Shown here: positions 10,636-29,493 of the stretch, one piece after another
How positions within the stretch are numbered: position 1 is the stretch's first letter
Layout: every line of letters begins with the position of its first letter
Made by a program: the position numbers and the translations under genes
DNA from: Polynucleobacter sp. MWH-Aus1W21
Lineage (GTDB): Bacteria > Pseudomonadota > Gammaproteobacteria > Burkholderiales > Burkholderiaceae
Assembly (NCBI RefSeq): GCF_018687275.1
Contig: NZ_CP061287.1
Coordinates: 1,431,733-1,463,732 of the forward strand
Length of the DNA: 32,000 nt
Direction: 5' to 3'
The notes under the pieces: generated by a model
What the model was told of the DNA's origin: nothing
The model's database searches: none
What the model saw: only the letters and a program-made list of their open reading frames with translations

Positions 10636-10760
10636 AAGTTCTCCAAAAAAGAAATTAGTCAGTAGTACTGTAGTTTCAGATTTTGGGAATTCCTACCGGT
10701 TTTTTGAGGGTTGAAAAGTTCGAAATCCGGCCCACAGATTCGAACTTTGCACCAAAAAGC

Positions 10761-10784
10761 AATCGCACAGTCAATCGCACAGTC
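10761..10784 (+). repeat. Tandem 12-bp direct repeat AATCGCACAGTC x2 (candidate arm-type recombinase binding sites)
   Basis: Exact tandem duplication, present identically at 17978-18001. Confidence 0.8.
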
Positions 10785-10808
10785 ATTTTTTTGTCGCTCA
10801 AAGCCATA

Positions 10809-10817
10809 TGCTATATA
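10809..10817 (+). promoter_or_regulatory. Extended -10-like element TGcTATATA upstream of tRNA fragment A
   Basis: TGCTATATA here and TGATATATA at the same place in copy C (18026-18034). TTGTCG lies 15 nt upstream. Confidence 0.3.
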
Positions 10818-10839
10818 GGTTTTTGAAGAGGCACGACTT

Positions 10840-10884
10840 CTTTTAATCCGTTGGTCGCGAGTTCGAATCTCGCCCGACCCACCA
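10840..10884 (+). repeat. tRNA-Lys(UUU)-like 3' fragment, copy A (anticodon loop to CCA); att core, not a complete tRNA
   Basis: CTTTTAATCCGTTGGTCGCGAGTTCGAATCTCGCCCGACCCACCA contains the T-arm GCGAG/TTCGAAT/CTCGC, the acceptor 3' strand and CCA. No D-arm or GGGTCGG 5' acceptor strand lies upstream. Confidence 0.8.
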
Positions 10885-10894
10885 GTTATACAAA

Positions 10895-10927: not shown

Positions 10928-11036
10928 GGGTTGTGGCAGATGTGGTTGCTGTGCGGACCCAATGGAAAATCTATGGAGTCGTTGTGGGTCAGGATGGGGG
11001 CGCTGGGTGACCGTGGGCAACTGAAACACAGAATGT

Positions 11037-11810
11037 TCAATGCAAAACAATCGCCTTTAGAAGCTTTAAAACTCGATAAACAATAGCCCCTATTGACTGC
11101 GCAAACAAGCCTACAAAGATACATACAAATGCTGTCAACCAAGGATCTGGTGAATACATCCCGAAAATTAAAAATGTAACTGCACTTATTGCCAATCCAA
11201 ACCCAATTGCAGCCTTTTGTGGCACTCCATGAATTCTTGGTCCCGGAGGAATATATTCCACCTTAATTCCTTTGTGTTCAATATCAACCCAAACGCCTGG
11301 GCCACTAGCCGATGGTGGTATGGCAGTCAAATAAGTCATAGCAATTTTTTGACCTCTATTAAATACGGGTAATTTATATTCTCTGCTCTTGTTATAAATA
11401 TCGTACTGCTGTTGTGTTGGAGTACCACCTGGTTGAACAAACATTAGCTGTTTGAATGCTGGAGACCATTCAACAATTCTAGGCGTGCCAATGATTTCAG
11501 TTCTTTCAGTCAAAAGAATGGTGTCGCCTGAATAAACCTTGAAAATAACTTCAGAAAAATCACGGCTAGTATCGTTTGTTAATTCAACCCTACTTGTATA
11601 CAAATTGGAGACTGGATTTCCTTGCCAGGTTGCCTGAATCGAGCCAAAAATAGGATCAATTGAAGAAGAGGCTATACGTTCATGGTGAACCACATACTCA
11701 AGTCGCCTCACTCTATTACGAAGGTACAGAACGAGCGCGCCAGCAAAGGCGGCAAATATATACCTTACGAATTGATTGTGAAAAATATCTTTTAAAAAGG
11801 AAAGATCCAT
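11037..11810 (-). CDS. Membrane protein of unknown function (N-terminal TM, central soluble domain, two C-terminal TM helices)
   Basis: 257 aa. GAGGA lies 9 nt upstream of the ATG. It is the last gene of a three-gene leftward cluster. Confidence 0.7.
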   Translation of the reverse strand: MDLSFLKDIFHNQFVRYIFAAFAGALVLYLRNRVRRLEYVVHHERIASSSIDPIFGSIQATWQGNPVSNLYTSRVELTNDTSRDFSEVIFKVYSGDTILLTERTEIIGTPRIVEWSPAFKQLMFVQPGGTPTQQQYDIYNKSREYKLPVFNRGQKIAMTYLTAIPPSASGPGVWVDIEHKGIKVEYIPPGPRIHGVPQKAAIGFGLAISAVTFLIFGMYSPDPWLTAFVCIFVGLFAQSIGAIVYRVLKLLKAIVLH

Positions 11811-11816
11811 CTTTTC

Positions 11817-11990
11817 TTATTCCTCTGTATTCTTATTCGAATTCTTATAAAGCAAGACTAACCCAGTAATTGGGGCAAAGAATAATCCCATAAAGAACCA
11901 AAGCCAAGCATTGCGGTTAGTTGTCTGAGCCCAATAAGCACAGAAGATCCCAAATAAGAAAAAGCCTATTCCAGAGTATTCATTCATCAT
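11817..11990 (-). CDS. Small two-helix membrane protein
   Basis: I prefer the ATG at 11990, which forms an ATGA overlap with the upstream stop. The sequence is MMNEYSGIGFFLFGIFCAYW...WLWFFMGLFFAPITGLVLL. Confidence 0.55.
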   Translation of the reverse strand: MMNEYSGIGFFLFGIFCAYWAQTTNRNAWLWFFMGLFFAPITGLVLLYKNSNKNTEE

Positions 11991-12361
11991 AGTAATTTGC
12001 ATGTCCCAAAAGCAATTCCACCACGGCCATTATTCTCAACAAACTTCATATCCGGGAACAGCTGAATATCGTACTGACTTCTAAATAAGTAGAACTTCTT
12101 GTATCCCACATGCTTATCCGCTTCCACCCTATCAATATCGTAGGAATCACAAGTGACTTTGTTGTCATTAGGCTTAATACTGCATCTATCGACTTTGGGC
12201 TTATCTGAATCATGAATTCTGGCGGAAAACTTGTACTTTTCCATTTGGGCTGGCTGGTACACATTCTCAAAATCTAGCTTTCTCGTAACTGTACAGTCAT
12301 AACTGGCTGCATTGGCTAGTCCAGCTGCTAGCAGCAATCCTAGGGAGATAAGGTATTTCAT
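11987..12361 (-). CDS. Secreted protein of unknown function
   Basis: 124 aa with a signal peptide MKYLISLGLLLAAGLANA|AS and four Cys in the mature part. Confidence 0.7.
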   Translation of the reverse strand: MKYLISLGLLLAAGLANAASYDCTVTRKLDFENVYQPAQMEKYKFSARIHDSDKPKVDRCSIKPNDNKVTCDSYDIDRVEADKHVGYKKFYLFRSQYDIQLFPDMKFVENNGRGGIAFGTCKLL

Positions 12362-12453: not shown

Positions 12454-12470
12454 TGTCGTGTTTCCCGACA
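12454..12470. repeat. TGTCG-loop-CGACA hairpin family member H1
   Basis: TGTCGTGTTTCCCGACA, immediately downstream of the 12473 ORF stop. Confidence 0.5.
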
Positions 12471-12823: not shown

Positions 12824-13021
12824 ATGCCAACTAAGTTTGCTTCACAATCTCAAGTCCGCCAATACAACGTTTCTAACGCTGTGGCTTCTGCTCGGATTGA
12901 AGGTATTGTTCCAACTAAGCAGTTAGAGCAAAACCTCACTGATTACGTTGCTGGTAAAAAGAGTATTACGCAAATACTGGAAGAAACTAAACAACGTTAT
13001 GTCACGCTACGACGCGGATGA
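12824..13021 (+). CDS. VbhA-like Fic antitoxin
   Basis: 65 aa carrying the inhibitory (S/T)xxxE(G/N) motif as SARIEG. It overlaps the downstream Fic gene. Confidence 0.75.
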   Translation: MPTKFASQSQVRQYNVSNAVASARIEGIVPTKQLEQNLTDYVAGKKSITQILEETKQRYVTLRRG

Positions 13022-13592
13022 CACTTACTGCTATTCAGGTACAGACGTACTTCGCAACAAAGCAGAAATAACTAACGCACAAGATTTAGACGCCTATGAA
13101 GGTGAGCTATCTACTTTGCGCTCAATTGAAATTCTAGAGAGGCCCATAGCAGGTCAATTTGACCTTGCTCATCTTCAGCGTATTCATTTGGCACTCTTTC
13201 AGGACGTATATGACTGGGCCGGCAAGATTCGCACAGTAGATATTAGTCGTGGCAATAGTCGTTTTGCCAATGTGCGGTTCATTGAGTCAGCAGCAAGCGA
13301 TATCTTTAACAGACTGGCTCGCGAAAACTGGCTCAAAGGCTTTGATGCCGACTCCCTATCAAAAAGATTAGCTCACTATTTATCAGAGATAAACGCCCTT
13401 CACCCTTTTCGGGAAGGAAATGGTCGCGTACAACGGATATTCATCTCCCAGCTTAGTCAATCAGCTGGATTTCAGCTTAACTACTCCGATCTGGAGCAGG
13501 AGCAAATTTATCAAGCAATGGAATTGGCCTTTAATGGCGATGAAGCTATTCTTGCCAATTTGATATCCGAGCGCCTGGATCGAAATGAATAG
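12999..13592 (+). CDS. Fic-domain protein (AMPylase-type toxin, class I arrangement)
   Basis: Canonical Fic motif HPFREGNGRVQR. I prefer the start at MSRYDADD (12999), which overlaps the antitoxin by 23 nt. Confidence 0.9.
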   Translation: MSRYDADDTYCYSGTDVLRNKAEITNAQDLDAYEGELSTLRSIEILERPIAGQFDLAHLQRIHLALFQDVYDWAGKIRTVDISRGNSRFANVRFIESAASDIFNRLARENWLKGFDADSLSKRLAHYLSEINALHPFREGNGRVQRIFISQLSQSAGFQLNYSDLEQEQIYQAMELAFNGDEAILANLISERLDRNE

Positions 13593-13632: not shown

Positions 13633-13677
13633 CTTTAAGATCGTTGGTCGCGAGTTCGAATCTCGCCCGACCCACCA
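13633..13677 (+). repeat. tRNA-Lys-like 3' fragment, copy B (5' part degenerate)
   Basis: Identical to copies A and C over CGTTGGTCGCGAGTTCGAATCTCGCCCGACCCACCAGTTATA (42 nt). Upstream it reads CTCTTTAAGAT rather than TCTTTTAATC. Confidence 0.75.
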
Positions 13678-13687
13678 GTTATATCGA

Positions 13688-13718: not shown

Positions 13719-13805
13719 GGTTGAATGGAATGTGTTGGTGACTGCTTAGGTTCAATAGGTGATCCATTGGACCGTGAGCGACTATGAGCGTCTCAAGGGG
13801 CTTGC

Positions 13806-13828
13806 AAGTGTCGTGTTTCGAGACACTT
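13806..13828. repeat. Palindrome AAGTGTC-GTGTTTCGA-GACACTT (same element as 29312-29336)
   Basis: 7-bp stem. Its core TGTCGTGTTTC..GACA is related to the hairpin family. Confidence 0.6.
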
Positions 13829-13838
13829 AAACACGTGG

Positions 13839-13859
13839 TTTGTCGGGTAAACCGACAAA
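13839..13859. repeat. Hairpin family member H2
   Basis: TTTGTCGG-GTAAA-CCGACAAA, 8-bp stem. Confidence 0.6.
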
Positions 13860-17930: not shown

Positions 17931-18056
17931 AAAAGTTTGAAATCCGATCTACAGATTCGAACTTTGCGCCAAAAAGCAATCGCACAGTCAATCGCACAGT
18001 CATTTTTTGGTCGCTCAAACCCTTATGATATATAGGTTTTTTAACACCCACGACTT
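17931..18056 (+). repeat. att-flank module, copy C
   Basis: Homologous to 10714-10839, including the 12-bp tandem repeat and the extended -10-like element. Confidence 0.75.
17978..18001 (+). repeat. Tandem AATCGCACAGTC x2, second occurrence
   Basis: Exact match to 10761-10784. Confidence 0.8.
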
Positions 18057-18101
18057 CTTTTAATCCGTTGGTCGCGAGTTCGAATCTCGCCCGACCCACC
18101 A
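18057..18101 (+). repeat. tRNA-Lys-like 3' fragment, copy C
   Basis: Identical to copy A across all 45 nt. No 5' half lies upstream. Confidence 0.8.
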
Positions 18102-18111
18102 GTTATACAAA

Positions 18112-18142: not shown

Positions 18143-18254
18143 GGCTAGATGGAATGCGGTGGTCACTGTGGGGATTCAATAGAAGATCTATTGGACGTTT
18201 CGAGTGGGGATGGTGGACGCTAAAGTGAGACTGAGCGTCTCGAAACGGGATGGT

Positions 18255-18271
18255 TGTCGGGTTAACCGACA
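18255..18271. repeat. Hairpin family member H3
   Basis: TGTCGG-GTTAA-CCGACA. Confidence 0.55.
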
Positions 18272-18298
18272 TTTCATATGTGGATAGTTGGGTGACCG

Positions 18299-18637
18299 TT
18301 AACGACCCAAAGCCTTGTCTAAACAATCTGACATAAATTGCACATACTTTATTGCCAGCTTAGTAGGGATAACGGATTTTTTACGAGCATCTGTTTTGTC
18401 TGCAAGCAACTTTACGTAACCAAGTGTCACCAAATTCTTCAATCTCCCATGTAAAGTAGCCTGGGAGCCATATTGCTGAAGAGAAATAAGATCGCCTACC
18501 AATAAGGGGATCTTTCGCGAGTCTTGCTGCATGATGTATTCAAGTAACTGAATTTCAAGGCAATCTAAAGCGCGACCTGGATTCATACGATCAAGTGCAT
18601 CAATCAGATTTAAAAAGCGAATATAGGCATTTGACAT
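18299..18637 (-). CDS. Winged-helix (MarR-like) DNA-binding protein
   Basis: 112 aa. The pattern LVGDLISLQQYGSQATLHGRLKNLVTLGYVKLLADKTDARKKSVIPT matches a recognition helix plus wing. Confidence 0.6.
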   Translation of the reverse strand: MSNAYIRFLNLIDALDRMNPGRALDCLEIQLLEYIMQQDSRKIPLLVGDLISLQQYGSQATLHGRLKNLVTLGYVKLLADKTDARKKSVIPTKLAIKYVQFMSDCLDKALGR

Positions 18638-20040: not shown

Positions 20041-20091
20041 GTTACTTAAAGTAACGCTCAAAAGTTTGGTATCCGGCCTAGAGATTCGAAC
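20041..20091 (+). repeat. Truncated att-flank module, copy D
   Basis: GTTACTTAAAGTAACGCTCAAAAGTTTGGTATCCGGCCTAGAGATTCGAAC matches 9579-9599 and then 10716-10745/17933-17962. Homology stops abruptly at about 20091. Confidence 0.65.
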
Positions 20092-21335
20092 TAATATTGC
20101 TCAAAATGCTTGCGAGTAATCTCGTAACCTTCATCCGCTTTTTTTCTACTAATAATCTCATCACGGTATGTACGCATAAAGTCTTTTGGATTTAGAAACG
20201 TACATTCACTACCATATGGATGACCGCAATACTCATACACAATTGTACGAACCTTATTTGGCTTATTTTTATTTACAAACTCAGACTCGCAATAGCCCTC
20301 GTAACATGACAGCACCTCAGGAAATGGCTTTTTCCAATTCTTTACTACTGGCGGCCTCACCAAAGGTTTCCAACCCTCCTTTTGTATTGCATCACGCAAT
20401 ACCAAGTAAGAGGTCTTAGATTCATCATATTTCCAGTATCCGAATAGGGCTATCACTGCAATAACTACCGTGGCGAATACCGCGTATATCTTCTTCCTAC
20501 GATCCCCTTTATCGCTTTGCTGCTTTTTCAAATCAGCTTCTGCCTGCTCCTTAGCCGACTCTTCAGCTTTCATTAATTCTGCTTTATTTTTTTCAAGCCT
20601 CTCAGCTACTAATTCAGCAGTATTTTGCTCACCTAAGAATTTTTGAGCACCAGCATCATAAGCATCATTTAACTCCTCACTCATATAGGCTGGCATCCAC
20701 TGCCACTCGAGCTTGCCTGTCTCTTGGTTTGTAGTTTGCTTCAGCCCAGTTTCAGAGAGAATGTCTAATTTCGCTGGGTAGATGTGCGGAAGATGATGCA
20801 AGTAAACAATGCTGCAATTTCTACTGCCAGCATATCCATGCCCATACGCCTCTTGCTTCATGTATTCCAATCCAGGATATTTGGATTCAAATTCTTTTTC
20901 TAACCTGTCTTGAGCACCTTTTTCATAAGCTGCATTAAGCCTAGCTACCAAATAAGGCTCATAGATATCCCAATAAACCCTTCCATCTTCAGTTAAGAAT
21001 AAATTTAGATATTCATCTTCCAAATCAAAGCCGCGCTGATATGCCTCTTCATTAGTAATCTGACCTTCTAATAAGATCTGAGTTTGCTTTTGGAGCTCCT
21101 CAAGGCGATCAGATTCAGCTCGCATTGCCTCTTCATGATTTGCACTAGCCTGCCACTTTGCCTCTCGAACTTCATCAAGGTGTCGCTCTGCAGCCCATGC
21201 GGCCTCTCTTGCACTCTCCCGAAGCTGACGTTGCATATCAGCCTGGCCTTCCTGGATCTTTGCGTTATCTTTACAGACACCACAAATACTCCCCCAGCCG
21301 TCCATATACTTACCACAGTTAGAGCAATTAGCCAC
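20091..21335 (-). CDS. Zinc-ribbon / coiled-coil / single-TM protein with a Cys-rich C-terminal domain, unknown function
   Basis: I prefer the GTG at 21335 (AGAGG 6-7 nt upstream) over the track's TTG at 21341. Features: CSNCG...CGVCKD, long Glu/Lys/Ala-rich helices, an internal repeat (YEPYLVARLNAAYEKGAQ / MPAYMSEELNDAYDAGAQ), TM helix IYAVFATVVIAVIALFGYW, and C-terminal CYEGYCE...YCGHPYGSEC. Confidence 0.7.
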   Translation of the reverse strand: MANCSNCGKYMDGWGSICGVCKDNAKIQEGQADMQRQLRESAREAAWAAERHLDEVREAKWQASANHEEAMRAESDRLEELQKQTQILLEGQITNEEAYQRGFDLEDEYLNLFLTEDGRVYWDIYEPYLVARLNAAYEKGAQDRLEKEFESKYPGLEYMKQEAYGHGYAGSRNCSIVYLHHLPHIYPAKLDILSETGLKQTTNQETGKLEWQWMPAYMSEELNDAYDAGAQKFLGEQNTAELVAERLEKNKAELMKAEESAKEQAEADLKKQQSDKGDRRKKIYAVFATVVIAVIALFGYWKYDESKTSYLVLRDAIQKEGWKPLVRPPVVKNWKKPFPEVLSCYEGYCESEFVNKNKPNKVRTIVYEYCGHPYGSECTFLNPKDFMRTYRDEIISRKKADEGYEITRKHFEQY

Positions 21336-21391
21336 ACTCAACCTCTATTAGTAAATTTGATTGATATTAGTATTTTGAATACGGAGTAAAC

Positions 21392-22279: not shown

Positions 22280-22720
22280 TTAACGTTTAAACCCACTTCT
22301 TAAACTGGAGCTTGCAGATTCAATCTGCTGATCGAGCTCCCCTGCCTCTACTGCTGCTTTAATAGATTCAAGAGCTTTAACCAATCCCTCTCCACTGGCT
22401 ACTTCAACGCTAGGCTTGCCTTTGGCTAACTCCAAAGTACAACTGCCATATTTCACAGAGACACAGACCTTTCCTTCCTCACTTTGAAACCACCATGGTT
22501 TTATACGTTTTGGAACTTCCACTTGTTTACGTAATCCTGTTTCACGATCTTTCACTGTTTTGTACTTCATGACTACAAATGGTGTTCCTTCTAGCTGGCT
22601 TTTAGCGAGTTGGATCTGCTCCCAGAGTTTTGATCCCAGCTTATTTCTCCTAATAACAATGGCTGGCATATTGCGGGGTTTTTTAACGGCCACTAGCTTT
22701 AAGTGACTTAATTGGCTCAT
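22280..22720 (-). CDS. Conserved-looking hypothetical protein (146 aa), first gene of the leftward operon
   Basis: AGGAG SD 7 nt upstream. I cannot assign a family with confidence. Confidence 0.65.
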   Translation of the reverse strand: MSQLSHLKLVAVKKPRNMPAIVIRRNKLGSKLWEQIQLAKSQLEGTPFVVMKYKTVKDRETGLRKQVEVPKRIKPWWFQSEEGKVCVSVKYGSCTLELAKGKPSVEVASGEGLVKALESIKAAVEAGELDQQIESASSSLRSGFKR

Positions 22721-22877: not shown

Positions 22878-23022
22878 AGTTGCATTGAGATGCGAAGAAG
22901 AAATAAGTTGCAGTAAGAGATGCAGTTAGTTGCTGTATTTGGGACAAATGAGTAGCTCTGAACAGCAACTCAAGCAACAGCAACTATCTTTTGTCTCTGC
23001 TACTCCTTGCATCTCAAGCAAC
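22878..23022. promoter_or_regulatory. 145-bp compound inverted repeat with reiterated GTTGC(N)TTGAGATGC motifs (operator/iteron-like)
   Basis: AGTTGCATTGAGATGC (22878), AGTTGCAGTAAGAGATGC (22906), and inverted GCATCTCAAGCAAC (23009). Extra GTTGC/GCAAC pentamers occur at 22929, 22965, 22974 and 22980. Confidence 0.55.
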
Positions 23023-23057
23023 ACCGCGACTCCTTTCAATATTCAAGGAGATTAAAA

Positions 23058-23591
23058 ATGAAAGAAATCACAGCCCGCTTATGGGAAAACAAAATGTACG
23101 GAACAACCTTCGCCAAAGGTCAATATCGCAAAGCCATCTACAACGGAACATTGGAGATCATGGATCCCTATGCCAAGTATTTAGTAGATTTTGAGGAAGT
23201 CGAGACTTGGTTTCACTTTCCCAAGAGTCCAGTGCATGTGGAAATGGCTAATCGCTTAGCCAACCCACCAGTCAATGAAGATGGAGTTTTAATGAGTTGG
23301 ATCTATCGATACGAGAATGGCTCAAAAAGCCCTATTGAGGGATATGCGTCTTTAGATATGAACTACAGCAGAATTTATATTGAAATTAATGATTCAGAGC
23401 ACGGAATAAATGATTACTGGGAACTGCCCATACGAAGCTGTATTGCCAGAATTCCCGGAAAACCCACTCCAGCACTAATAGCCACCACGCAATCGGAGCT
23501 AAATGCCCCTCAAAAACCGTCTACAAACGGCGTATTTTCCGGTGGACATAAGCAAGCACTTGAGAACTTACAAAAGTACGCTATCCAGTGA
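23058..23591 (+). CDS. Hypothetical protein (177 aa)
   Basis: AAGGAG SD 7 nt upstream of the ATG at 23058. No recognisable motif. Confidence 0.65.
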   Translation: MKEITARLWENKMYGTTFAKGQYRKAIYNGTLEIMDPYAKYLVDFEEVETWFHFPKSPVHVEMANRLANPPVNEDGVLMSWIYRYENGSKSPIEGYASLDMNYSRIYIEINDSEHGINDYWELPIRSCIARIPGKPTPALIATTQSELNAPQKPSTNGVFSGGHKQALENLQKYAIQ

Positions 23592-23678
23592 TTTGAGGTG
23601 TTAGCTAGTATCGCGGGGTTTTGTCGTCTAAATCCCACGATATTCAGAAGATTTAGCTAAATACTTATAGAAAGAAAG

Positions 23679-23708
23679 AGGCTAAGAATATTTACATATT
23701 CTTAGCCT
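23679..23708. terminator. Perfect 13-bp stem hairpin AGGCTAAGAATAT-TTAC-ATATTCTTAGCCT
   Basis: Downstream of the 23058-23591 gene. There is no clean T-run on the plus strand, and a CTTTCTTTCT tract follows on the minus strand. Confidence 0.45.
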
Positions 23709-23832: not shown

Positions 23833-24399
23833 ATGGCACAAGCAAAAACCTTATCTCAAACCGAACTAGACCAAGTTCTTGAGTATGTCAGTACCAAAAA
23901 GTACGCTTTACGTGACAGAGCAATGATTTTGACGAGCTTTCTCGGGGGACTTCGCGTCGCCGAAATAGCCTCTCTAAAAATGGGTGATGTTCTAAACCTA
24001 GATGGCACCATTAAAAATGAGATACGTCTCTCCGCAGCGCAAACAAAAGGCAAATTTCCTAGAACGGTGTTTGTTTCTCAACGCTTACAAACTGAGTTAG
24101 CAAACTATCTAGCTACCCGGTACATCACCAACCCCGATATTCCCTTCTTTCATACAGATCATCGCCTAGGCTTTACCCCAAATGGCTTATGCGTTTGGTT
24201 TTATCAACTCTATAAGAATGTCGGCATTAGTGGCGGCAGTAGCCATTCAGGTAGAAAGTTTTTTATAACCACCTTGGCTAATAAAGGCATCGGGGTAAGA
24301 ATCTTAGCCTCTTTGGCTGGTCACAGATCCATTGCCGTAACCCAAAGGTACATCGATGTTAACGATGAGCAAAAGAGACAGGCCGTAGAACTTATATAA
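23833..24399 (+). CDS. Small tyrosine recombinase, catalytic domain only (FimB/FimE-sized)
   Basis: 188 aa. Arg in GGLRVAEI, Lys in QTKGKFPRTVFV, HxxR in HSGRKFF, and His/Tyr in GHRSIAVTQRY. No N-terminal core-binding domain. Confidence 0.85.
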   Translation: MAQAKTLSQTELDQVLEYVSTKKYALRDRAMILTSFLGGLRVAEIASLKMGDVLNLDGTIKNEIRLSAAQTKGKFPRTVFVSQRLQTELANYLATRYITNPDIPFFHTDHRLGFTPNGLCVWFYQLYKNVGISGGSSHSGRKFFITTLANKGIGVRILASLAGHRSIAVTQRYIDVNDEQKRQAVELI

Positions 24400-24405
24400 A
24401 TTAAG

Positions 24406-24990
24406 TTAACTCTCTATCCAACCCAAGCGCTCCCATTTACGCAATGGGAGCTCATCATCTAGTCCGGGCTTCTCGCAGCTAAAACCCAGATCACGCAATA
24501 GTTGCAATACATAGGTACGGCTAACAGTTTCACCTGCCAAATACTCTTTCTCAATTAATGTTTGAATCTTTGAGAGTGTCCATTTATCTGTTACATGCCC
24601 CGCTGCTTTAGCGCCAGCCTTTAATGCTCTCGTTAATTTCTGCACTTCATTATTCGTCAGCTTCTTAGGTCTACCTAACTGCTGACAGCGTAACTCGTTA
24701 TAGCTCGTTTTATAGATCTTCTTATTACTTAAGAACCCTTTTTCTTCTTGCTGAAAGCTAGCGGTGATCGTGCCGCCCATGTCCGTTTTTCTTTTGACTG
24801 TTAATCGAATAGCCCAGTTCTGCACACTTTGACGGCTCACCCCTAATTGCCGGGCAACTTCTGCTTTAGCCACCCCCTTCATTAAAAGGCGAGCACCTTC
24901 TAAGCGGCGATGCTCAAGAAGTTTGAGTTTTCGTTTCATTTTCTTTTGGGTTGTACTAGATTTTCCAAAAAACACCTCATTTTTTGTCAA
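24406..24990 (-). CDS. IS630-type transposase N-terminal HTH/wHTH-only protein (no DDE domain)
   Basis: LLMKGVAKAEVARQLGVSRQSVQNWAIRL ... GRPKKLTNNEVQKL ... WTLSKIQTLIEKEYL...VSRTYVLQLLRDLGFSCEKP matches the IS630 N-terminal pattern. An alternative start exists at 24939 (MKRKLKLL). Confidence 0.65.
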   Translation of the reverse strand: MTKNEVFFGKSSTTQKKMKRKLKLLEHRRLEGARLLMKGVAKAEVARQLGVSRQSVQNWAIRLTVKRKTDMGGTITASFQQEEKGFLSNKKIYKTSYNELRCQQLGRPKKLTNNEVQKLTRALKAGAKAAGHVTDKWTLSKIQTLIEKEYLAGETVSRTYVLQLLRDLGFSCEKPGLDDELPLRKWERLGWIES

Positions 24991-25107
24991 CTATTTTTAT
25001 AACAATAAATCATTCTACCCATATTAAACATGGCAAAGAAAAATCCCTATTTTTCGTCAAGAGATTTTAGTTTTTTTCATCAGCAAAAAAACGCTCATTT
25101 TCGACAT
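24966..25107 (+). repeat. Three imperfect direct repeats A5-6 N C N CT(C)ATTTT(T)(T/C)G(T)CAA
   Basis: CAAAAAACACCTCATTTTTTGTCAA (24966), GAAAAATCCCTATTTTTCGTCAA (25038), CAAAAAAACGCTCATTTTCGACA (25083). Confidence 0.5.
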
Positions 25108-25163
25108 ACATTTCTCTTCATTGGCATTACCGCTCTTTAACAATTCACTCATTTCTTATTCAC

Positions 25164-25180
25164 TGTCGGGTTTCCCGACA
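25164..25180. repeat. Hairpin family member H4
   Basis: TGTCGGG-TTT-CCCGACA, perfect 7-bp stem, 57 nt upstream of the 25237 ATG. Confidence 0.6.
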
Positions 25181-25236
25181 TTAGCCCTTTCCCATATTGG
25201 TAAAGGTAATTGTTAGATTTTTATTAAGGAGGTCTT

Positions 25237-26034
25237 ATGGACCAAATAGCTGAAGTAGCTGAAAAAGTAGATGGGCAAGTAGTTACGAATCTGGTTGAAA
25301 AAATCAGTCAAGATTCGCAATTATCTGTAGGGGCCGTAGTAAACAACTTGATTGCCGAACGAAAAGCTTGGCAAACACAGGATCTCACTCGAAGCAATGA
25401 ACGCCTTTATGGCATCTTGCAAAGTTGTTACATCTTGTTTCAAAGCATGAATAGCATTAAGTCGGAAGCTATGGCTGTAAAAAAAGGGTTTTTAGAGTTT
25501 TGTAAGCAGCAAGGTTGGGACTTTAAAGACAACACACACCTGATGACTAAGGTTGTGCAATGTGTCTTTGGCAATGAAGATCGCCGTCGCGTTAGCTCTT
25601 ACGCCCTTGCGCTACGAGCGGCAGCAGAGTCAAAGACACCTAGCATGGAAATCCCACAGTTTTTCAGGGATAAAGGTGGGGTAGAAGAAGTTCGACGCGA
25701 GCGATCACCCAATCATAAGACGGCCAAGGATAAAGCAGCAGTTGGCCGCGTTGCCATGGAAGGTAGAATCTTAGCCTCCTTTCATAGCGACACTTTAGCG
25801 GGTCAATTTGAAGCGTCTGAGTACAACGGGGCCTTAGTCCTGCTCTCCACCAGAGAGGCTGATGGTAGTTTTGCAGTTCGTAGACTGGTTCAAAACGGCA
25901 CGGCTATTACTGCCGTACTAGCTAGTTTGGCGCACTCAGTAGCCAAGGAGCAACAAGAGAAAGCTCCAGCCACTAAAGCAGCCAATGATGATCAGTCTCG
26001 CGATACTGCAATAAAACAAGCTGTAGGCGCGTAA
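25237..26034 (+). CDS. Hypothetical protein (265 aa), first gene of the AAA+ cassette
   Basis: AAGGAGG SD. Helix-rich N-terminal half and a low-complexity acidic/Ala-rich C-terminus. No recognisable family. Confidence 0.7.
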   Translation: MDQIAEVAEKVDGQVVTNLVEKISQDSQLSVGAVVNNLIAERKAWQTQDLTRSNERLYGILQSCYILFQSMNSIKSEAMAVKKGFLEFCKQQGWDFKDNTHLMTKVVQCVFGNEDRRRVSSYALALRAAAESKTPSMEIPQFFRDKGGVEEVRRERSPNHKTAKDKAAVGRVAMEGRILASFHSDTLAGQFEASEYNGALVLLSTREADGSFAVRRLVQNGTAITAVLASLAHSVAKEQQEKAPATKAANDDQSRDTAIKQAVGA

Positions 26035-26107
26035 TTGCGTTGTCGTCTAAAGCGGTAAGCCAATACGGATAAGAAATGAGTGAAGCCATAACTAACTAGG
26101 AGGAACT

Positions 26108-26812
26108 ATGGCACTCAATATCTCAACCCCGTCATCACCTGATGACTTTGCATTAATGCCCCATACAAGGGCTAAGCTAGAAGCCGTATTAGACGGTACC
26201 GTAAAGTTTCCTGGCAATGGAGTATCAGCTTTACTGCTCTACGGCGTTTACGGTTCAGGAAAAACTACCATGGCCAAGCTATTGCCTGGCTGGCTCGAGA
26301 CTGTCAAGACTACCCCTGTACTGCAATCAATTCCTGTGGGCTCAATTATCGACTCCACACAGCCAAATATTGATTTTTACTCCTGCGCTCAAGGCCAGAA
26401 TGGCGCATCACTCATTGGGCAAATTCAAAGTCATGTCATGACCATGAGCTTTAACCCCAGTTGCTTACATTATGTGATTTTGGATGAAGTAGATAACCTC
26501 ACCGCAGCAGCCCATGCATCGCTCAAGGCCATCATGAACTACACCCATGTAGTTTTTGTCCTTACAACAAATCATCTTAATAAGGTAGATCCCGGAGTTA
26601 TTAATCGATCCATCGTATTGGATATGAATTCTGCTCCGACCTCTGCTTGGGTCAGCAAGATCAAGGCTATTTACGCAGCCTCCGGGAAGACGCCTCCGAC
26701 CGATCAAGCCATTGCAGGTGTTGTCAACGCTGGAAATGGATCAGCCAGAACGATTCTCACTGATATCGAAATCACTCAATCTATTCGTGAGCGGCAGTTT
26801 GAAGATGAATAA
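26108..26812 (+). CDS. Clamp-loader-like (RFC/DnaX/gp44-type) AAA+ ATPase, short form
   Basis: AGGAGG SD. Walker A GVYGSGKTT, Walker B VILDEVDNL, sensor-1 LTTN, NRS at the position of the clamp-loader SRC motif, and GNGSARTIL resembling DnaX GSxRDAL / RFC GDxR. Confidence 0.75.
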   Translation: MALNISTPSSPDDFALMPHTRAKLEAVLDGTVKFPGNGVSALLLYGVYGSGKTTMAKLLPGWLETVKTTPVLQSIPVGSIIDSTQPNIDFYSCAQGQNGASLIGQIQSHVMTMSFNPSCLHYVILDEVDNLTAAAHASLKAIMNYTHVVFVLTTNHLNKVDPGVINRSIVLDMNSAPTSAWVSKIKAIYAASGKTPPTDQAIAGVVNAGNGSARTILTDIEITQSIRERQFEDE

Positions 26813-27251
26813 GCGCAAATCTGTTGAACTGCTGATGGAAATCACTGTGCAGGCGCTTGCTGAATTGGTAAGCGGGGACGAAGGTATCGGCACCTTTGTC
26901 CTTGCTAAAAACCATGCTGTCTCCACCAGAAAGATTGTGAATAAGGTGCAATTTGAAGAGGAATGGCAACAGCAAATTGATGATAGCGAGGTTTTCTATG
27001 TTTTCACCACTTTAAAGCTAGCGCCCAACATCCTTCAGATTGCGGGCTCTAAATACCAAGACCTTAATCGCGTCTCTTGGAATTTAATTGTTCCCAATAC
27101 TTTTACGCTTGAGCCCGCGCAGAGACCCACCAACTCTATTGAGCTACTCATGATGGCAAAACTCATGCTTGAAGAAATCCAAGGCGGCCACTTCTCGTAT
27201 GAGGAATTGGTGGAGTTTTTACAAATTATTAGTCGCATACGTAAGCGCTAA
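26805..27251 (+). CDS. Hypothetical protein (148 aa)
   Basis: The ATG at 26805 overlaps the ATPase stop by 8 nt. The track ORF start at 26712 is unlikely. Confidence 0.6.
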   Translation: MNKRKSVELLMEITVQALAELVSGDEGIGTFVLAKNHAVSTRKIVNKVQFEEEWQQQIDDSEVFYVFTTLKLAPNILQIAGSKYQDLNRVSWNLIVPNTFTLEPAQRPTNSIELLMMAKLMLEEIQGGHFSYEELVEFLQIISRIRKR

Positions 27252-27294
27252 ATCCTTAACAAATCTACTTAAATTAATTTACCTTGGAGTAATC

Positions 27295-27477
27295 ATGAAA
27301 TATTTTGACGCAGTTGTACTAAATGACCGAGAAACATATAGCAGCATTGATGGCGCATATGTTGTATTGAATGCCATTGAAGATGAATGTGTAAACGAGG
27401 TTGAGATAACCGAAAAGTCTCGAATTATTCAGATTTCCGATCTTTTAGAAGCCTACTATCGATTAACTACTTTTTAA
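27295..27477 (+). CDS. Small acidic hypothetical protein (60 aa)
   Basis: GGAG SD 7 nt upstream of the ATG at 27295. Confidence 0.5.
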   Translation: MKYFDAVVLNDRETYSSIDGAYVVLNAIEDECVNEVEITEKSRIIQISDLLEAYYRLTTF

Positions 27478-27550
27478 ATATTGAAATCACCCAATACGAG
27501 CACATAGAAAAAGAATATGAAGATGGTAATTTTTGAATTTTGGGGTTGTC

Positions 27551-28099
27551 ATGCGCTACCCTAGAACAGTCTTTGTTTTTGACACCCCAGACCATGGCAT
27601 TGATCCCGAATACTTTCAGAAGATCAGCTCATCTTCACAGAAGATCTATATACGCGGGCATTCAAAACCAATTGGGACAATTGATTCTGAGCTTGATGCC
27701 ATCAAAATACTGGATGGTTATCTTAATTTCACAGGTCCAAATCGGTCTTATATGGTCATCGGCAATCTAAAGCATGTTGAATTTATTGCTACTAGCTTGG
27801 CTGATAAATACTGCTCGATCTATTGGCTCATGAATAAGAATTCCGCTTTAAGCATTCGCGCAGCTTTAGGTGCCCTGCTTGATCTTCATGAAATGGAAGC
27901 CTTATTTAACGAGGCGCTTTATTACTACACCAAATCTAGGGATCGGTATCAAGCATTGTCTGACTCCACGCATATATCAAACGATGATTTTCCCCAGCTT
28001 ATTGCGGACATCATTAATGGAGGAAAACAGGTTGAGCTACGGGCGGATATTGAAAGTTTTTTATGCGAGGAATTACATATCGGAAAATTTGAGATTTAA
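27551..28099 (+). CDS. Hypothetical protein (182 aa)
   Basis: I prefer the ATG at 27551 over the track's TTG at 27533. Its 3' end overlaps the convergent integrase gene by 4 nt. Confidence 0.6.
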   Translation: MRYPRTVFVFDTPDHGIDPEYFQKISSSSQKIYIRGHSKPIGTIDSELDAIKILDGYLNFTGPNRSYMVIGNLKHVEFIATSLADKYCSIYWLMNKNSALSIRAALGALLDLHEMEALFNEALYYYTKSRDRYQALSDSTHISNDDFPQLIADIINGGKQVELRADIESFLCEELHIGKFEI

Positions 28100-29310
28100 G
28101 CCAACTTCGCGGCTGCCATCATTGGGGTCAGTTTTGAGTAATGACGCTCAATCATTAATGTCGAGGTACCCATTTGCCTAGCTAGGGTGTGTATATCAAC
28201 CCCCTCAGCTAGTGCAAATGTGGCATAGGTATGGCGAAGACTATAAAGACTACGATTTCGCCCCGCTACATCTTTAAGCAAATTGCATTCTTTTAAGAGA
28301 TTCTCAAACTGAGGATTAAAGTTATAAGGCTGAACCCCTCTTGGGAAAGTAAATATCAGACGATCTAACCTGGCCTCTATGACGGCATTTAGATCTTTAT
28401 ACGGCAATTGATGCCAAGCAATTAATCTTTCCAAGCAATCCACTACCAAATGTTTAGCAATTAAATATCGAGGTCCTGTTTTACCGGAAAGCCAAACCTT
28501 GAGATAGCGTTGATCGCCAATCCAATGCCATTGAAGATGTTTCCAGCGCATGGGTTTGAGCTCGGTTCCAGGCCTTGCTCCCGTATAGAGTAAGAATTCC
28601 ACATAAGAGCGACAGAGCTGTCTCATCTCCTTGGTGCGCGATGATCTGCCGACGTTTTCCCAGCTAGGCATATAGGCCAATAATTGAGCGATCTCTTCCT
28701 TACTAAAGGCGGGTCTTGCTTGACTGGGGGAGCCATGAGGATCTAATAAAGGTACCCGGTATGTATCTACAATCAAGTTTTGCTCTCTAGCCAAGGCAAT
28801 GACTCGGTTATAGGTCGTTGCATGGGTGCGCTTAGTGCTTGCCTGGGGATCTCTACCCATCTGGGATAAGCGCCAAGATTCAAAATCCTTAACCAGCTCT
28901 GAAGTAATTTCCTTTAGCTGGAATTTTCCAAAAAATGGGATGAGGTATTTATTGAGAACAAACCTGTAATCCTTAAAGATAGCTTTTCCATTACCTTCTT
29001 TATTGGCAATATCCATTGCCACGAGGTCTTCTTCAGCCAACTGCTTAAATGACTTGGATTTGAGGCTTAATTCCTGGCTTATCTTAGCCATGGTCTGCTC
29101 ATAGAGTGCTATAGAGGTATGCTTGGCCTCCTCAAGATCCGCCTGGCCAGTGCTCATGGAGTGCCACTGACAATTGGGCAACCTAAAGCGGCATTGCCAT
29201 TGATTGCTGCCTGATCGCTTAAAGAGACTTACTAAACCTCGGTGGAGGTGAATTACATCAGCAGACTGGGATGCACTAGATTTGAAGAAAAGCTGGTTTA
29301 GATTTTGCAC
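28096..29310 (-). CDS. int: Tyrosine-type site-specific integrase
   Basis: 404 aa with a GTG start. Arg in YTGARPGTE, LRHTYATFAL, and MGTSTLMIERHYSK (His/Tyr). The N-terminal arm-binding-like region has KRSGSNQWQCRFRL. Confidence 0.9.
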   Translation of the reverse strand: MQNLNQLFFKSSASQSADVIHLHRGLVSLFKRSGSNQWQCRFRLPNCQWHSMSTGQADLEEAKHTSIALYEQTMAKISQELSLKSKSFKQLAEEDLVAMDIANKEGNGKAIFKDYRFVLNKYLIPFFGKFQLKEITSELVKDFESWRLSQMGRDPQASTKRTHATTYNRVIALAREQNLIVDTYRVPLLDPHGSPSQARPAFSKEEIAQLLAYMPSWENVGRSSRTKEMRQLCRSYVEFLLYTGARPGTELKPMRWKHLQWHWIGDQRYLKVWLSGKTGPRYLIAKHLVVDCLERLIAWHQLPYKDLNAVIEARLDRLIFTFPRGVQPYNFNPQFENLLKECNLLKDVAGRNRSLYSLRHTYATFALAEGVDIHTLARQMGTSTLMIERHYSKLTPMMAAAKLA

Positions 29311-29311
29311 T

Positions 29312-29336
29312 CAAGTGTCGTGTTTCGAGACACTTG
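29312..29336. repeat. Palindrome CAAGTGTC-GTGTTTCGA-GACACTTG abutting the integrase start
   Basis: Same element as 13806-13828, with an 8-bp stem. Confidence 0.6.
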
Positions 29337-29375: not shown

Positions 29376-29392
29376 TTGTCGAGTAAACCGAC
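29376..29392. repeat. Hairpin family member H5 (degenerate)
   Basis: TGTCGAGTAAACCGACA. The following CATTTCATGTGTGGATA...CGACCCAAAGC is homologous to 18268-18312. Confidence 0.5.
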
Positions 29393-29493
29393 ATTTCATG
29401 TGTGGATATCTGGTAGGCAGACTCCGACCCAAAGCAGACCATCAATTCAATAATCTGAGTACGCTAACTCTCACCCAAAACTGAGCGACCTGC

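What the first reader, a model, noticed from the sequence alone, without database searches (positions are those of the whole stretch)
25164..28099. Five-gene cassette built around a stand-alone clamp-loader-like AAA+ ATPase, next to an integrase
Five co-directional ORFs (25237-26034, 26108-26812, 26805-27251, 27295-27477, 27551-28099) are tightly packed, with one 8-nt overlap. Three have strong SD sequences. The last ORF ends 4 nt inside the convergent integrase gene. Only the 234-aa protein is recognisable. Its Walker A/B, sensor-1, NRS (SRC position) and GNGSARTIL (sensor-2 region) motifs are of the RFC/DnaX/T4 gp44 clamp-loader type. It is much shorter than DnaX, and I see no clamp, polymerase, helicase or primase gene in the island. 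I cannot place the four partner proteins in any family. Such an ATPase with four orphan partners as integrase-proximal cargo fits either an uncharacterised anti-phage/conflict system or a satellite-type replication-hijack module. A family hairpin (TGTCGGGTTTCCCGACA) lies in its 5' leader.
Basis: partly seen in the sequence, partly recalled or inferred. Interest (0 to 1): 0.7.

Follow-up and report, generated by a model that had tools for sequence, protein, structure and literature searches.

The report
Conserved core of tRNA-Lys genomic islands
The five genes are not one unit: only the first two, an orphan protein and a shortened clamp-loader-type ATPase, always travel together, as the fixed core of a family of mobile genomic islands in freshwater bacteria, and they are switched on through a leader that copies the control region of ribosomal RNA operons.

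Summary
The ORFs, overlaps, Shine-Dalgarno sites, ATPase motifs and hairpin are all present as described. The host is Polynucleobacter. The five-gene cassette is not a co-conserved unit. Across about 40 related loci, only ORF1 and the AAA+ ATPase stay together. They usually lie between a 188-aa tyrosine recombinase (window 23833-24399) and the inward-facing 404-aa integrase. ORF3 has alternative forms or is absent. ORF4 is confined to close relatives. ORF5 travels with the integrase. Sister Polynucleobacter genomes keep an 84-96% identical backbone but carry an ORF1/ATPase pair only 29%/26% identical, so the block 24407-27550 is an exchangeable module. The islands sit beside tRNA-Lys and carry defence-type cargo elsewhere (TIR, OLD/PtuA-like, MmeI-like). 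The module matches no known defence system and is absent from the phage, plasmid and viral collections.

A new point is the leader. It holds an exact rrn-type boxA (25132-25143). Two arms flanking boxA pair with the ORF1-ATPase spacer, with compensatory changes in 17 of 26 pairs. This resembles the rRNA leader-trailer helix but wraps a protein gene.

My best reading is an element-maintenance module of a tycheposon-like island under Nus-factor antitermination. Its biochemical function is unproven, and a defence role is not excluded.

The parts
18057..18103 (+). 3' half of tRNA-Lys(UUU). It is one of three copies in the window (also 10840-10886 and about 13640-13679) and marks the left side of the island.
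   Evidence: Alignment with the full tRNA-Lys of L001 and L002. ARAGORN finds no complete tRNA in the window.
18254..18313 (+). 60-nt repeat containing palindrome P (18255-18271). Its partner is at 29376-29435, so the pair is a candidate for the island end sequences.
   Evidence: the repeat finder family D3, 78% identity; P scan.
22280..22720 (-). DUF6641 protein, a recurrent backbone gene of these islands.
   Evidence: PF20346 5e-16. It is present near the module in L001-3, L013, L014, L018 and L095-L102.
23007..23591 (+). 194-aa backbone protein of unknown function. It is conserved just upstream of the small recombinase.
   Evidence: tblastn 59-90% identity in L001-L006 and L018, 28% in L095.
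23833..24399 (+). Small (188 aa) tyrosine recombinase consisting of the catalytic domain only. It forms the left flank of the module.
   Evidence: PF00589 1e-20, phrog_216 2e-37. It is found in the same position in 21 of the 22 family loci L001-L029 whose contig reaches that far; L023 is the exception.
24406..24990 (-). Variable divergent gene 'X'. Here it is an HTH protein resembling the N-terminus of an IS630 transposase. Most other loci carry an unrelated 291-307-aa family in this position.
25121..25134 (+). Leader arm S1a. It pairs with S1b (26051-26063) and overlaps the first bases of boxA.
   Evidence: (-19.2 kcal/mol, z = -6.1).
25132..25143 (+). boxA, GCTCTTTAACAA, identical to the rrn boxA core.
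   Evidence: The only match in the window. The exact 12-mer is at the same leader position in 10 of 13 subfamily loci. The rrn boxA-spacer sequence ugcucuuuaacaauuua is in PMC2724277, Table 1.
25144..25161 (+). Leader arm S2a. It pairs with S2b (26067-26084).
   Evidence: 16-nt perfect inverted repeat found by the repeat finder, I3. (-26.7 kcal/mol, z = -6.7).
25164..25180 (+). Palindrome/hairpin P in the leader (7-bp stem, 3-nt loop).
   Evidence: -10.6 kcal/mol. It is conserved at this position in all subfamily loci, followed by a T-run in L007, L009, L011 and L017, and has a different stem sequence that still pairs in L018.
25186..25206 (+). Second leader hairpin. The stem sequence differs between loci while the pairing is kept.
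   Evidence: leaders of L005, L006 and L020.
25237..26034 (+). ORF1, an orphan 265-aa mostly helical protein with the nearly invariant motif F-G-x-x-R-R-R-V-S-x-Y. It is always directly upstream of the ATPase.
   Evidence: No fold or sequence match in PDB or BFVD. The family spans 1431 50%-identity clusters.
26051..26084 (+). Trailer arms S1b (26051-26063) and S2b (26067-26084) in the ORF1-ATPase spacer.
26108..26812 (+). Collar-less clamp-loader-type AAA+ ATPase (domains I and II only).
26805..27251 (+). ORF3, translationally coupled to the ATPase. It is a variable third gene.
   Evidence: Close homologues only plus a 21-24% identical relative in L006. It is replaced by a 194-aa family in most loci and is absent in L004, L022, L029, L099 and L102.
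27295..27477 (+). ORF4, a 60-aa lineage-specific gene.
   Evidence: Found only in L001.
27551..28099 (+). ORF5, a 182-aa protein that segregates with the integrase backbone and not with ORF1/ATPase.
   Evidence: 94-96% identical in L099 and L102, where ORF1/ATPase are only 26-29% identical. No PDB or family hit.
28096..29310 (-). 404-aa inward-facing tyrosine integrase at the right end of the island.
   Evidence: phrog_1 5e-31; weak PF00589 hit. It is in the same position in nearly all loci.
29376..29435 (+). Right copy of the 60-nt repeat, with P at 29377-29393, 67 nt upstream of the integrase start. The P stem is better paired (a G-U pair) on the integrase-coding strand.

Best explanation
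The finding is the central part of a roughly 11-kb integrative genomic island of Polynucleobacter, about window 18.1-29.4 kb. The island lies beside a tRNA-Lys locus that holds several islands in tandem.

The conserved core of this island family is not the five-gene set. It is: small tyrosine recombinase, divergent variable gene X, leader, ORF1, collar-less clamp-loader-type AAA+ ATPase, optional coupled third gene, variable cargo slot, and inward-facing integrase.

Inferred: ORF1 is the DNA-binding specificity subunit and the ATPase is an ATP-driven loader or remodeller. Together they would serve the element's own DNA transactions, either replication or maintenance of the excised circle, or control of recombination. 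In this reading the small recombinase plays a resolvase-like role and the 404-aa enzyme carries out integration.

Shown: the block X + leader + ORF1 + ATPase + ORF3 + ORF4 (24407-27550) is exchanged as a unit between otherwise near-identical islands.

Shown at sequence level: the operon leader carries an exact rrn-type boxA. Two arms flanking boxA are complementary to the spacer after ORF1, and a hairpin follows that looks like a terminator in relatives.

Inferred: NusB/NusE-modified RNA polymerase reads through the leader hairpin. Once ORF1 has been transcribed, leader-trailer helices close around it as they do around 16S rRNA. This would allow processing or differential stability and set the ORF1:ATPase ratio.
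For: Synteny. Recombinase, X, ORF1, AAA+, variable genes and integrase appear in this order in Polynucleobacter, Methylophilaceae, Sulfuritalea and metagenome contigs, down to 38% ATPase identity and 30% ORF1 identity. ORF1 and the ATPase stay adjacent even where the neighbouring recombinase is a serine resolvase.

Module swap. L099 and L102 share the integrase (96%), ORF5 (94-96%), the small recombinase (90%), the 194-aa protein (88-90%) and DUF6641 (92%) with the window. Their ORF1 is 29% identical and their ATPase 26%.

Island context. The window has tRNA-Lys 3' fragments. Full tRNA-Lys genes lie next to the islands in L001, L002, L007 and L011. The integrase faces inward. Cargo in relatives includes TIR, an OLD/PtuA-like ATPase-Toprim protein (6e-30), and MmeI-like, WYL and T5orf172 genes. 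An additive island at tRNA-Lys is described for Ca. Methylopumilus in PMC10872708.

ATPase type..

Leader. boxA is exact. S2 cognate versus non-cognate duplex energies are -26.2 versus -13.4 kcal/mol, and S1 -23.5 versus -16.5. Of the cells, 88.7% are paired, and 17 of 26 pairs carry compensatory changes against 8.3 in shuffles (0 of 500 shuffles reach this); slid controls give about 40% paired. Mismatches are 12 G-U against 3 A-C on the coding strand, which favours RNA. Divergent subfamilies lack boxA but have a local terminator-like hairpin at the same ORF1-ATPase junction.
Against: No biochemical function is shown for ORF1 or the ATPase. I found no origin-like iterons, no primase, helicase or Rep homologue, and no circular contigs. 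The island ends are only tentatively placed, on a 78% identical 60-nt repeat. The HTH-like reading of the ORF1 motif rests on my comparison from memory with ParB-type HTH motifs and was not tested. The two leader-trailer helices cross each other (order S1a, S2a, S1b, S2b), so they cannot both be simple nested stems. The arms used were chosen by complementarity, which inflates the paired percentage; cognate specificity is the fairer test. Nus-factor binding, promoter position and RNase III cleavage are untested. One locus (L023) lacks the small recombinase, and one island type (L095) has an ORF1 homologue with no ATPase directly after it.
Confidence: 0.45

Rival explanations
1. ORF1 + ATPase (+ a variable third gene) is an uncharacterised anti-phage or conflict system. 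The ATPase would act as sensor or motor and the exchangeable third gene as effector. The system would simply be carried by these islands.
For: The islands carry defence-type cargo. The operon is compact and translationally coupled with a variable third gene. Alleles are very divergent inside near-identical flanks, a pattern also seen under diversifying selection in defence loci.
Against: There is no PADLOC hit beyond generic AAA+ similarity. No recognisable effector domain appears in ORF1, ORF3, the 194-aa family or ORF5. In L004, L022, L029, L099 and L102 none of the usual coupled third genes (the ORF3-type or the 194-aa family) follows the ATPase. The pair keeps the same slot between the two recombinases across very divergent islands, whereas true cargo occupies other slots and changes identity.
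Confidence: 0.25
2. ORF1 and the ATPase are accessory factors of site-specific recombination. They would control directionality, synapsis or target choice for the flanking recombinases, functionally like the AAA+ regulators MuB, TnsC or IstB of DDE transposons.
For: The pair is almost always linked to small site-specific recombinases, either tyrosine or, in L103, a serine resolvase. Palindrome P recurs in the leader, upstream of the integrase, upstream of the small recombinase in L005 and L006, and near island ends.
Against: To my knowledge no precedent exists for AAA+ regulators of tyrosine recombinases. The ATPase belongs to the clamp-loader clade. P behaves more like an RNA hairpin: T-runs follow it, G-U pairs lie on the transcribed strand, and the L018 variant keeps the pairing with a different stem sequence. 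L023 lacks the small recombinase.
Confidence: 0.15
3. The complementary arms around ORF1 are DNA inverted repeats of an invertible (phase-variable) segment flipped by the FimB/E-sized small recombinase, and not RNA helices.
For: A small catalytic-domain-only tyrosine recombinase lies 0.8 kb upstream, with a weak NCBIfam hit to tyrosine-type DNA invertases (4.8e-9, far below the cut-off). Perfect 16-nt inverted repeats flank ORF1.
Against: ORF1 and the ATPase are on the same strand in every locus examined, so no inverted variant was seen. The arm sequences differ completely between loci whose recombinases are 68-90% identical. Mismatches are biased to G-U on the coding strand, 12 against 3. The two arm pairs are arranged in a crossing order, not as a single inverted repeat.
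Confidence: 0.05

Closest known systems
Clamp-loader AAA+ subunits (RFC small subunits, DnaX gamma/tau, HolB, T4 gp44)
   Same: It has the same AAA+ clade by sequence and predicted fold. It has Walker A/B, sensor 1, an arginine finger at the SRC position (NRS), sensor 2 (GSAR) and an RFC-box-II-like N-terminal motif.
   Different: It has only domains I and II and no collar domain. No clamp, polymerase or other loader subunits are nearby. It is always paired with an orphan protein inside a mobile island. Identity to real clamp loaders is at most about 30%.
Tycheposons and additive flexible genomic islands at tRNA genes (Hackl et al. preprint 10.1101/2020.12.28.424599; Ca. Methylopumilus fGI-2 at tRNA-Lys, PMC10872708)
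   Same: The host is a streamlined aquatic bacterium. The island is tRNA-associated with repeated partial tRNA copies. It has an inward-facing tyrosine integrase at one end, a small conserved module plus variable cargo, and mostly unknown genes.
   Different: The conserved module is ORF1 + clamp-loader-type ATPase rather than a primase, helicase or polymerase. There is a second, small recombinase. Membership of the integrase in the tycheposon lineage was not tested.
rrn operon antitermination leader (boxA, Nus factors) with the 16S leader-trailer helix (PMC10250234, PMC2724277)
   Same: The boxA core is identical. Sequence directly flanking boxA is complementary to sequence just after the downstream gene, forming helices of 13-20 bp with covariation.
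   Different: The enclosed gene encodes a protein, not rRNA. There are two crossing helices rather than one nested stalk. A conserved hairpin follows boxA, in the phage lambda nut-like order of boxA then hairpin. No experiment has been done.
Gamma-Mobile-Trio (GMT) islands (10.1101/2023.03.28.534373)
   Same: These are mobile islands rich in defence cargo, defined by a small conserved gene set that includes two recombinases plus a DNA-binding protein.
   Different: The GMT genes are two adjacent recombinases plus a StbA-like protein, with no AAA+ ATPase. The only similarity is a sub-threshold GmtY hit of the small recombinase (21 bits against a 340-bit cut-off).

Membership tests
Clamp loader (DnaX/RFC/gp44) | AAA+ module with Walker A/B, sensor 1, SRC-type arginine finger and sensor 2 | tested here: met
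   Invariant GxxGxGKTT, DExD, TTN, R167 and GSAR in 20 homologues. HMM and fold matches to RFC, DnaX and gp44.
Clamp loader (DnaX/RFC/gp44) | C-terminal collar domain III that assembles the pentamer | tested here: not met
   The protein is 234 aa. Profile matches end at about position 225 of 355 in dnaX_nterm. The model shows only the alpha/beta domain plus a helical lid, and among the listed hits the best TM-score normalised to target length is with 'RFC domains 1 and 2'.
Clamp loader (DnaX/RFC/gp44) | Genomic or functional association with a sliding clamp, a polymerase or other loader subunits | tested here: not met
   No such genes are seen in the scanned genes of the window island or in the gene tables of the related loci.
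Known anti-phage defence systems (PADLOC-DB 2.0) | Significant match of the component proteins to a system model | tested here: not met
   Only generic AAA+ hits (TRIP13 1e-4, IetA 0.014) and a Cas7e hit at 0.003 for ORF1. There are no hits for ORF3-5, X, the 194-aa family or the L099 ORF1 variant; the L099 ATPase variant gives only generic AAA+ hits.
Prophage or phage satellite | Capsid, terminase, packaging or phage replication genes, or presence in viral collections | tested here: not met
   PHROG hits are limited to integrases, the clamp-loader family and DNA-binding families for the HTH protein. No family member is found in 50,697 phage records or in IMG/VR.
Tycheposon / additive tRNA island | [quoted passage not shown] | tested here: met
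   Three tRNA-Lys 3' fragments in the window; full tRNA-Lys in L001, L002, L007 and L011. The integrase lies at the island end and is transcribed inward.
Tycheposon / additive tRNA island | Lineage-specific tycheposon tyrosine recombinase and shared hallmark replication genes (primase/helicase) | not tested
   No tycheposon profiles were available. No primase or helicase was detected by Pfam.
rrn-type Nus antitermination leader | boxA consensus in the 5' leader | tested here: met
   GCTCTTTAACAA at 25132-25143 equals the rrn boxA in PMC2724277. It is conserved in 10 of 13 subfamily loci.
rrn-type Nus antitermination leader | Leader-trailer helix enclosing the downstream gene, supported by covariation | tested here: met
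rrn-type Nus antitermination leader | NusB/NusE binding and terminator read-through | not testable with these tools
   This needs transcription assays or a nusB/boxA genetic test.
Tyrosine-invertase phase switch (fim-like) | Both orientations of the segment between the inverted repeats occur in populations | tested here: not met
   ORF1 is co-oriented with the ATPase in every locus that has both genes. This rests on assemblies only; reads were not examined.
GMT islands | GmtY-GmtZ-GmtX trio | tested here: not met
   There is only a 21-bit hit of the small recombinase to recomb_GmtY against a 340-bit cut-off. The gene set differs.

The most novel reading that the evidence does not exclude
An orphan protein family (at least 1431 clusters at 50% identity, no Pfam model found for the window ORF1 or 10 long homologues) and a collar-less clamp-loader-type ATPase together form the defining machinery of a previously unrecognised class of integrative islands. 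In this reading an AAA+ loader or remodeller works with site-specific recombinases, a tyrosine/serine-recombinase counterpart of MuB/TnsC-type control, or a new way of recruiting the host replisome to an excised island. Its expression would use a co-opted rRNA-style boxA antitermination complex plus leader-trailer helices wrapped around a protein-coding gene, a regulatory design I know of for no mRNA.
Probability: 0.25. Interest if true: 0.8.

Novelty: new variant of a known kind. Interest (0 to 1): 0.6.

Why it matters
Flexible genomic islands at tRNA genes drive strain-level diversity and phage defence in abundant, genome-streamlined freshwater bacteria such as Polynucleobacter and Methylopumilus. 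About 80% of their genes are unknown, and how they move is unclear.

This work identifies a conserved and widely distributed gene pair as the fixed core of one such island family. That gives a marker for finding these islands and a concrete target for testing how they are maintained or mobilised.

The boxA leader with leader-trailer helices around a protein gene matters in its own right. If it is functional, it would extend the rRNA-type Nus 'chaperone' mechanism to mobile-element mRNAs. It can be tested directly with reporters and compensatory mutations.

Tried and rejected
1. Structure route for ORF1. The AF2 model (pLDDT 77) gave no Foldseek match in PDB or BFVD. The profile against PDB sequences gave nothing.
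2. Pfam scans of 10 long ORF1 homologues found no fused domain.
3. ORF3, ORF5 and the 194-aa family against PDB sequences gave nothing.
4. Rfam found no family in the window or the leader.
5. Plasmid, phage and IMG/VR searches returned only ordinary clamp loaders at 30% identity or less. I therefore rejected plasmid, prophage and packaged-satellite origins.
6. The search for iterons or an origin around the module found nothing convincing. The consensus promoter scan was no better than shuffles.
7. No contig has terminal overlaps indicating a circular form.
8. The attempt to find an empty attachment site through the flanking DUF2789 gene instead revealed swapped and truncated island variants.
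9. The ORF1 alignment was too divergent for a locus scan, so the ATPase alignment was used.
10. MAFFT misaligned the covarying trailer arms. I extracted fixed-length arms instead.
11. I considered P as a LexA-box-like operator or as a recombinase core site. Neither could be established.

Full report
**1. The observation**

The five co-directional ORFs, the 8-nt ATPase/ORF3 overlap and the 4-nt tail-to-tail overlap of ORF5 with the convergent integrase are as described. So are the Shine-Dalgarno sites before ORF1, the ATPase gene and ORF4.

The 234-aa protein is a clamp-loader-clade AAA+ ATPase. It hits phrog_168 'clamp loader' at 4e-15, dnaX_nterm at 3.5e-12 and PF13177 at 3.8e-6. Its best PDB sequence hit is RFC3. 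The AF2 model (pLDDT 77) matches RFC small subunits, E. coli gamma and the construct 'RFC domains 1 and 2'.

In 20 homologues at 57-68% identity, the Walker A/B residues, sensor 1, R167 (the NRS/SRC position) and GSAR (sensor 2) are invariant. The protein stops after the lid, so the collar domain is missing.

ORF1, ORF3, ORF4 and ORF5 have no meaningful hit in Pfam, PHROGs, NCBIfam or PADLOC. The hairpin at 25164-25180 is real and is one of five copies of the same palindrome in the window, against 0.09 expected. The window comes from Polynucleobacter, with 94% nucleotide identity over 14 kb to strain AM-25C3.

**2. What is conserved**

The ATPase has hundreds of close homologues, at least 327. 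I looked at about 40 loci from Polynucleobacter, Methylophilaceae, Sulfuritalea and metagenomes. They show one recurring order:
- a 188-aa tyrosine recombinase (plus strand);
- a variable minus-strand gene, X;
- ORF1, then the ATPase;
- nought to three variable genes;
- an inward-facing integrase of about 400 aa (minus strand).

This order holds down to 38% ATPase identity and 30% ORF1 identity (L013, L014, L029).

ORF1 and the ATPase are adjacent in every locus that has both. This includes a distant relative where the neighbouring recombinase is a serine resolvase (L103).

The other three genes of the finding are not part of this core:
- **ORF3.** It has only close homologues plus a 21-24% identical relative in L006. 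Most loci carry an unrelated, translationally coupled 194-aa family instead. Several loci have nothing there.
- **ORF4.** It was found only in the nearest relative.
- **ORF5.** It goes with the integrase (see section 3).

The common X gene is a 291-307-aa family. In the window it is replaced by an HTH protein resembling an IS630 transposase N-terminus. A DUF6641 protein and a 194-aa protein upstream of the small recombinase are further recurrent backbone genes.

ORF1 belongs to a very large uncharacterised family. Its profile hits 1431 clusters at 50% identity, 865 of them at E <= 1e-10. Ten long members have no Pfam domain. ORF1 itself has no fold match in PDB or BFVD.

**3. Module exchange**

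I used the flanking DUF2789 gene as a probe. It picked up Polynucleobacter genomes (L099, L102) with the same integrase (96%), ORF5 (94-96%), small recombinase (90%), 194-aa protein (88-90%) and DUF6641 (92%). Their ORF1 is only 29% identical and their ATPase only 26%. They lack ORF3 and ORF4 and carry a different X gene, or none.

Nucleotide similarity to these two genomes stops at about 24400 and resumes at 27551. The exchangeable unit is therefore X + leader + ORF1 + ATPase + ORF3 + ORF4.

Every island keeps one ORF1/ATPase pair, yet the pair can be replaced by a distant homologue. That fits a function essential to the element whose specificity co-evolves with a cis-acting site inside the block, as in the replication or immunity modules of phages and satellites. 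A defence system under diversifying selection would also produce this pattern.

**4. Island context**

The window has three copies of the 3' half of tRNA-Lys(UUU), at 10840, about 13640 and 18057, but no complete tRNA. L001 and L002 have the full tRNA at the position matching 18057. L007 and L011 have tRNA-Lys next to their islands.

A 60-nt repeat containing the palindrome lies at 18254-18313 and 29376-29435. It brackets an 11-kb unit that ends with the integrase, so I take it as the likely island limits. This placement is tentative.

Cargo in relatives is defence-like. It includes a TIR protein, an OLD/PtuA-like ATPase-Toprim protein, and MmeI-type, WYL, T5orf172 and Fic/VbhA genes.

An 'additive flexible genomic island' marked by repeated tRNA-Lys ends, with about 80% unknown genes, has been described in Ca. 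Methylopumilus (PMC10872708). The architecture also matches the published definition of tycheposons: an inward-facing integrase, a small conserved module and cargo.

No family member occurs in the plasmid, phage or IMG/VR collections. No contig looks circular.

**5. The leader**

Comparing leaders shows a conserved 12-mer, GCTCTTTAACAA, at 25132-25143. It is the only match in the window. It is identical to the rrn boxA; the rrn boxA-spacer sequence is ugcucuuuaacaauuua in PMC2724277. The exact 12-mer is at the same leader position in 10 of 13 loci of the subfamily, spanning Polynucleobacter, Methylophilaceae and Sulfuritalea.

The sequence just upstream of boxA and overlapping its first bases (S1a, 25121-25134) is complementary to the first part of the ORF1-ATPase spacer (S1b, 26051-26063). 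The sequence just downstream of boxA (S2a, 25144-25161) is complementary to the second part (S2b, 26067-26084).

The evidence for these two helices is as follows:
- The tool found the 16-nt perfect core of S2 on its own.
- The arm sequences differ completely between lineages, but the pairing is kept.
- Cognate leader/trailer duplexes average -26.2 kcal/mol for S2 and -23.5 for S1. Non-cognate combinations average -13.4 and -16.5.
- On fixed-length arms, 88.7% of cells pair, and 17 of 26 pairs show compensatory changes against 8.3 in shuffles (0 of 500 shuffles reach this). Slid controls pair at about 40%.
- Mismatches are G-U rather than A-C on the coding strand, 12 against 3. This favours an RNA structure over DNA inverted repeats.

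One caveat applies: the arms were picked by complementarity, so one search is the fairer test.

The order S1a, S2a, S1b, S2b means the two helices cross. They are either a pseudoknot-like closure that leaves the boxA core as the connecting loop, or alternative states. I cannot tell which.

The design parallels the rrn operon. There, boxA-bound Nus factors keep the leader at the polymerase, and the leader pairs with the trailer once 16S has been made (PMC10250234).

After S2a comes the palindrome/hairpin P, at -10.6 kcal/mol. In L007, L009, L011 and L017 a T-run follows it, so it looks like an intrinsic terminator. In L018 the stem has a different sequence but still pairs.

Other P copies lie after the third gene in L007 and L017, upstream of the small recombinase in L005 and L006, near island ends, and 67 nt upstream of the integrase start in the window. 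At this last site the stem gains a G-U pair on the integrase-coding strand.

Divergent subfamilies, including L099, lack boxA. They have a local terminator-like hairpin at the same ORF1-ATPase junction. Attenuation between ORF1 and the ATPase therefore seems to be a general feature of the family.

**6. Interpretation**

Shown:
- the gene pair and its fixed place between recombinases;
- the module exchange;
- the island context;
- the sequence-level leader architecture with covariation.

Inferred:
- The pair serves the element itself. I favour maintenance or replication of the excised circle, with the small recombinase in a resolvase-like role and ORF1 as a DNA-binding specificity factor.
- The near-invariant ORF1 motif G-x-x-R-R-R-V-S reminds me of ParB-type HTH motifs. 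This rests on memory and was not tested.
- The leader works through Nus-factor antitermination and leader-trailer closure.

The defence reading remains a serious rival at about 0.25. An AAA+ accessory role in recombination is possible at about 0.15. A fim-like inversion switch is unlikely, because ORF1 and the ATPase are co-oriented in every locus that has both.

**7. Verdict**

The 'five-gene cassette' reading fails its own co-conservation test. In its place there is a two-gene core of a tRNA-Lys island family, with an unexpected rRNA-like leader.

The island type is a new variant of a known kind (tycheposon-like or additive islands). The ORF1/ATPase module and the boxA leader-trailer arrangement around an mRNA are, to my knowledge, undescribed.

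Noticed in passing
window 10840-10886, about 13640-13679, 18057-18103; also 10714-10894 and 17931-18111: There are three copies of the 3' half of tRNA-Lys(UUU), and a 181-nt repeat (93% identical) that includes two of them. Several islands are stacked in tandem at one tRNA-Lys locus. A second integrase (9595-10635, minus strand) sits next to the first copy. The window has no complete tRNA.
   Followed up: partly
window 11023-12049 and L006 7815-8837: About 1 kb, covering a 257-aa and a 124-aa ORF, is 95% identical between this Polynucleobacter window and a Methylophilaceae MAG contig that also carries the ORF1/ATPase module. This points to recent exchange of island material between families.
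   Followed up: no
window 12454-12470, 13841-13857, 18255-18271, 29377-29393; 13805-13828 = 29312-29335: Further copies of the palindrome TGTCGGG-N3-CCCGACA lie outside the finding. An exact 24-nt repeat, itself a hairpin, lies next to two of them. The copy at 13805-13857 looks like a remnant of an integrase-upstream region beside a tRNA fragment.
   Followed up: partly
L095-L098, L100 (about 8415-8705 in locus coordinates): In several Polynucleobacter genomes and contigs the 404-aa integrase is cut after residue 97 (99% identical up to there). It is followed by a different island that has its own small recombinase, DUF6641 and an ORF1 homologue (29% identical to the L099 ORF1), but no ATPase directly after it.
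   Followed up: partly
window 24976-25109: Three direct repeats of about 13 nt (CATTTTTTGTCAA, TATTTTTCGTCAA, TCATTTTCGACAT) lie in the AT-rich divergent region between gene X and the leader. Similar T-rich TTTTCG motifs occur in the unrelated L099 leader. They may be operator or origin-like sites.
   Followed up: no
window 23675-23692 / 24297-24314 and 23679-23708: An 18-nt inverted repeat (89% complementary) links a hairpin upstream of the small recombinase gene with a site inside its coding region.
   Followed up: no
window 28096-29310 (integrase): By eye, the integrase seems to have unusual residues at two catalytic-pocket positions: Tyr where HxxR normally has His (YSLRH), and Thr where His or Trp is usual (MGTS). 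This would fit its weak Pfam score of 22 bits. No alignment was made to check it.
   Followed up: no
window 25133-25143 with 25211-25220: In the local fold of the leader alone, the boxA bases pair with AATTGTTAGA just upstream of the ORF1 Shine-Dalgarno site. This is a possible alternative structure. Its conservation was not checked.
   Followed up: no
window 12948-13592; L007 16380-17139: A Fic-domain protein sequence is readable in the window ORF (no family scan was run on it). A Fic/VbhA toxin-antitoxin pair lies in the neighbouring tandem island at tRNA-Lys in the Methylophilaceae locus.
   Followed up: no
window 20091-21341 and L009 5878-6924: The 416-aa zinc-ribbon and coiled-coil protein of the window island has a 33% identical homologue in the cargo slot between the third gene and the integrase of the minimal Sulfuritalea island. 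The same accessory gene therefore occupies different slots in different islands.
   Followed up: no
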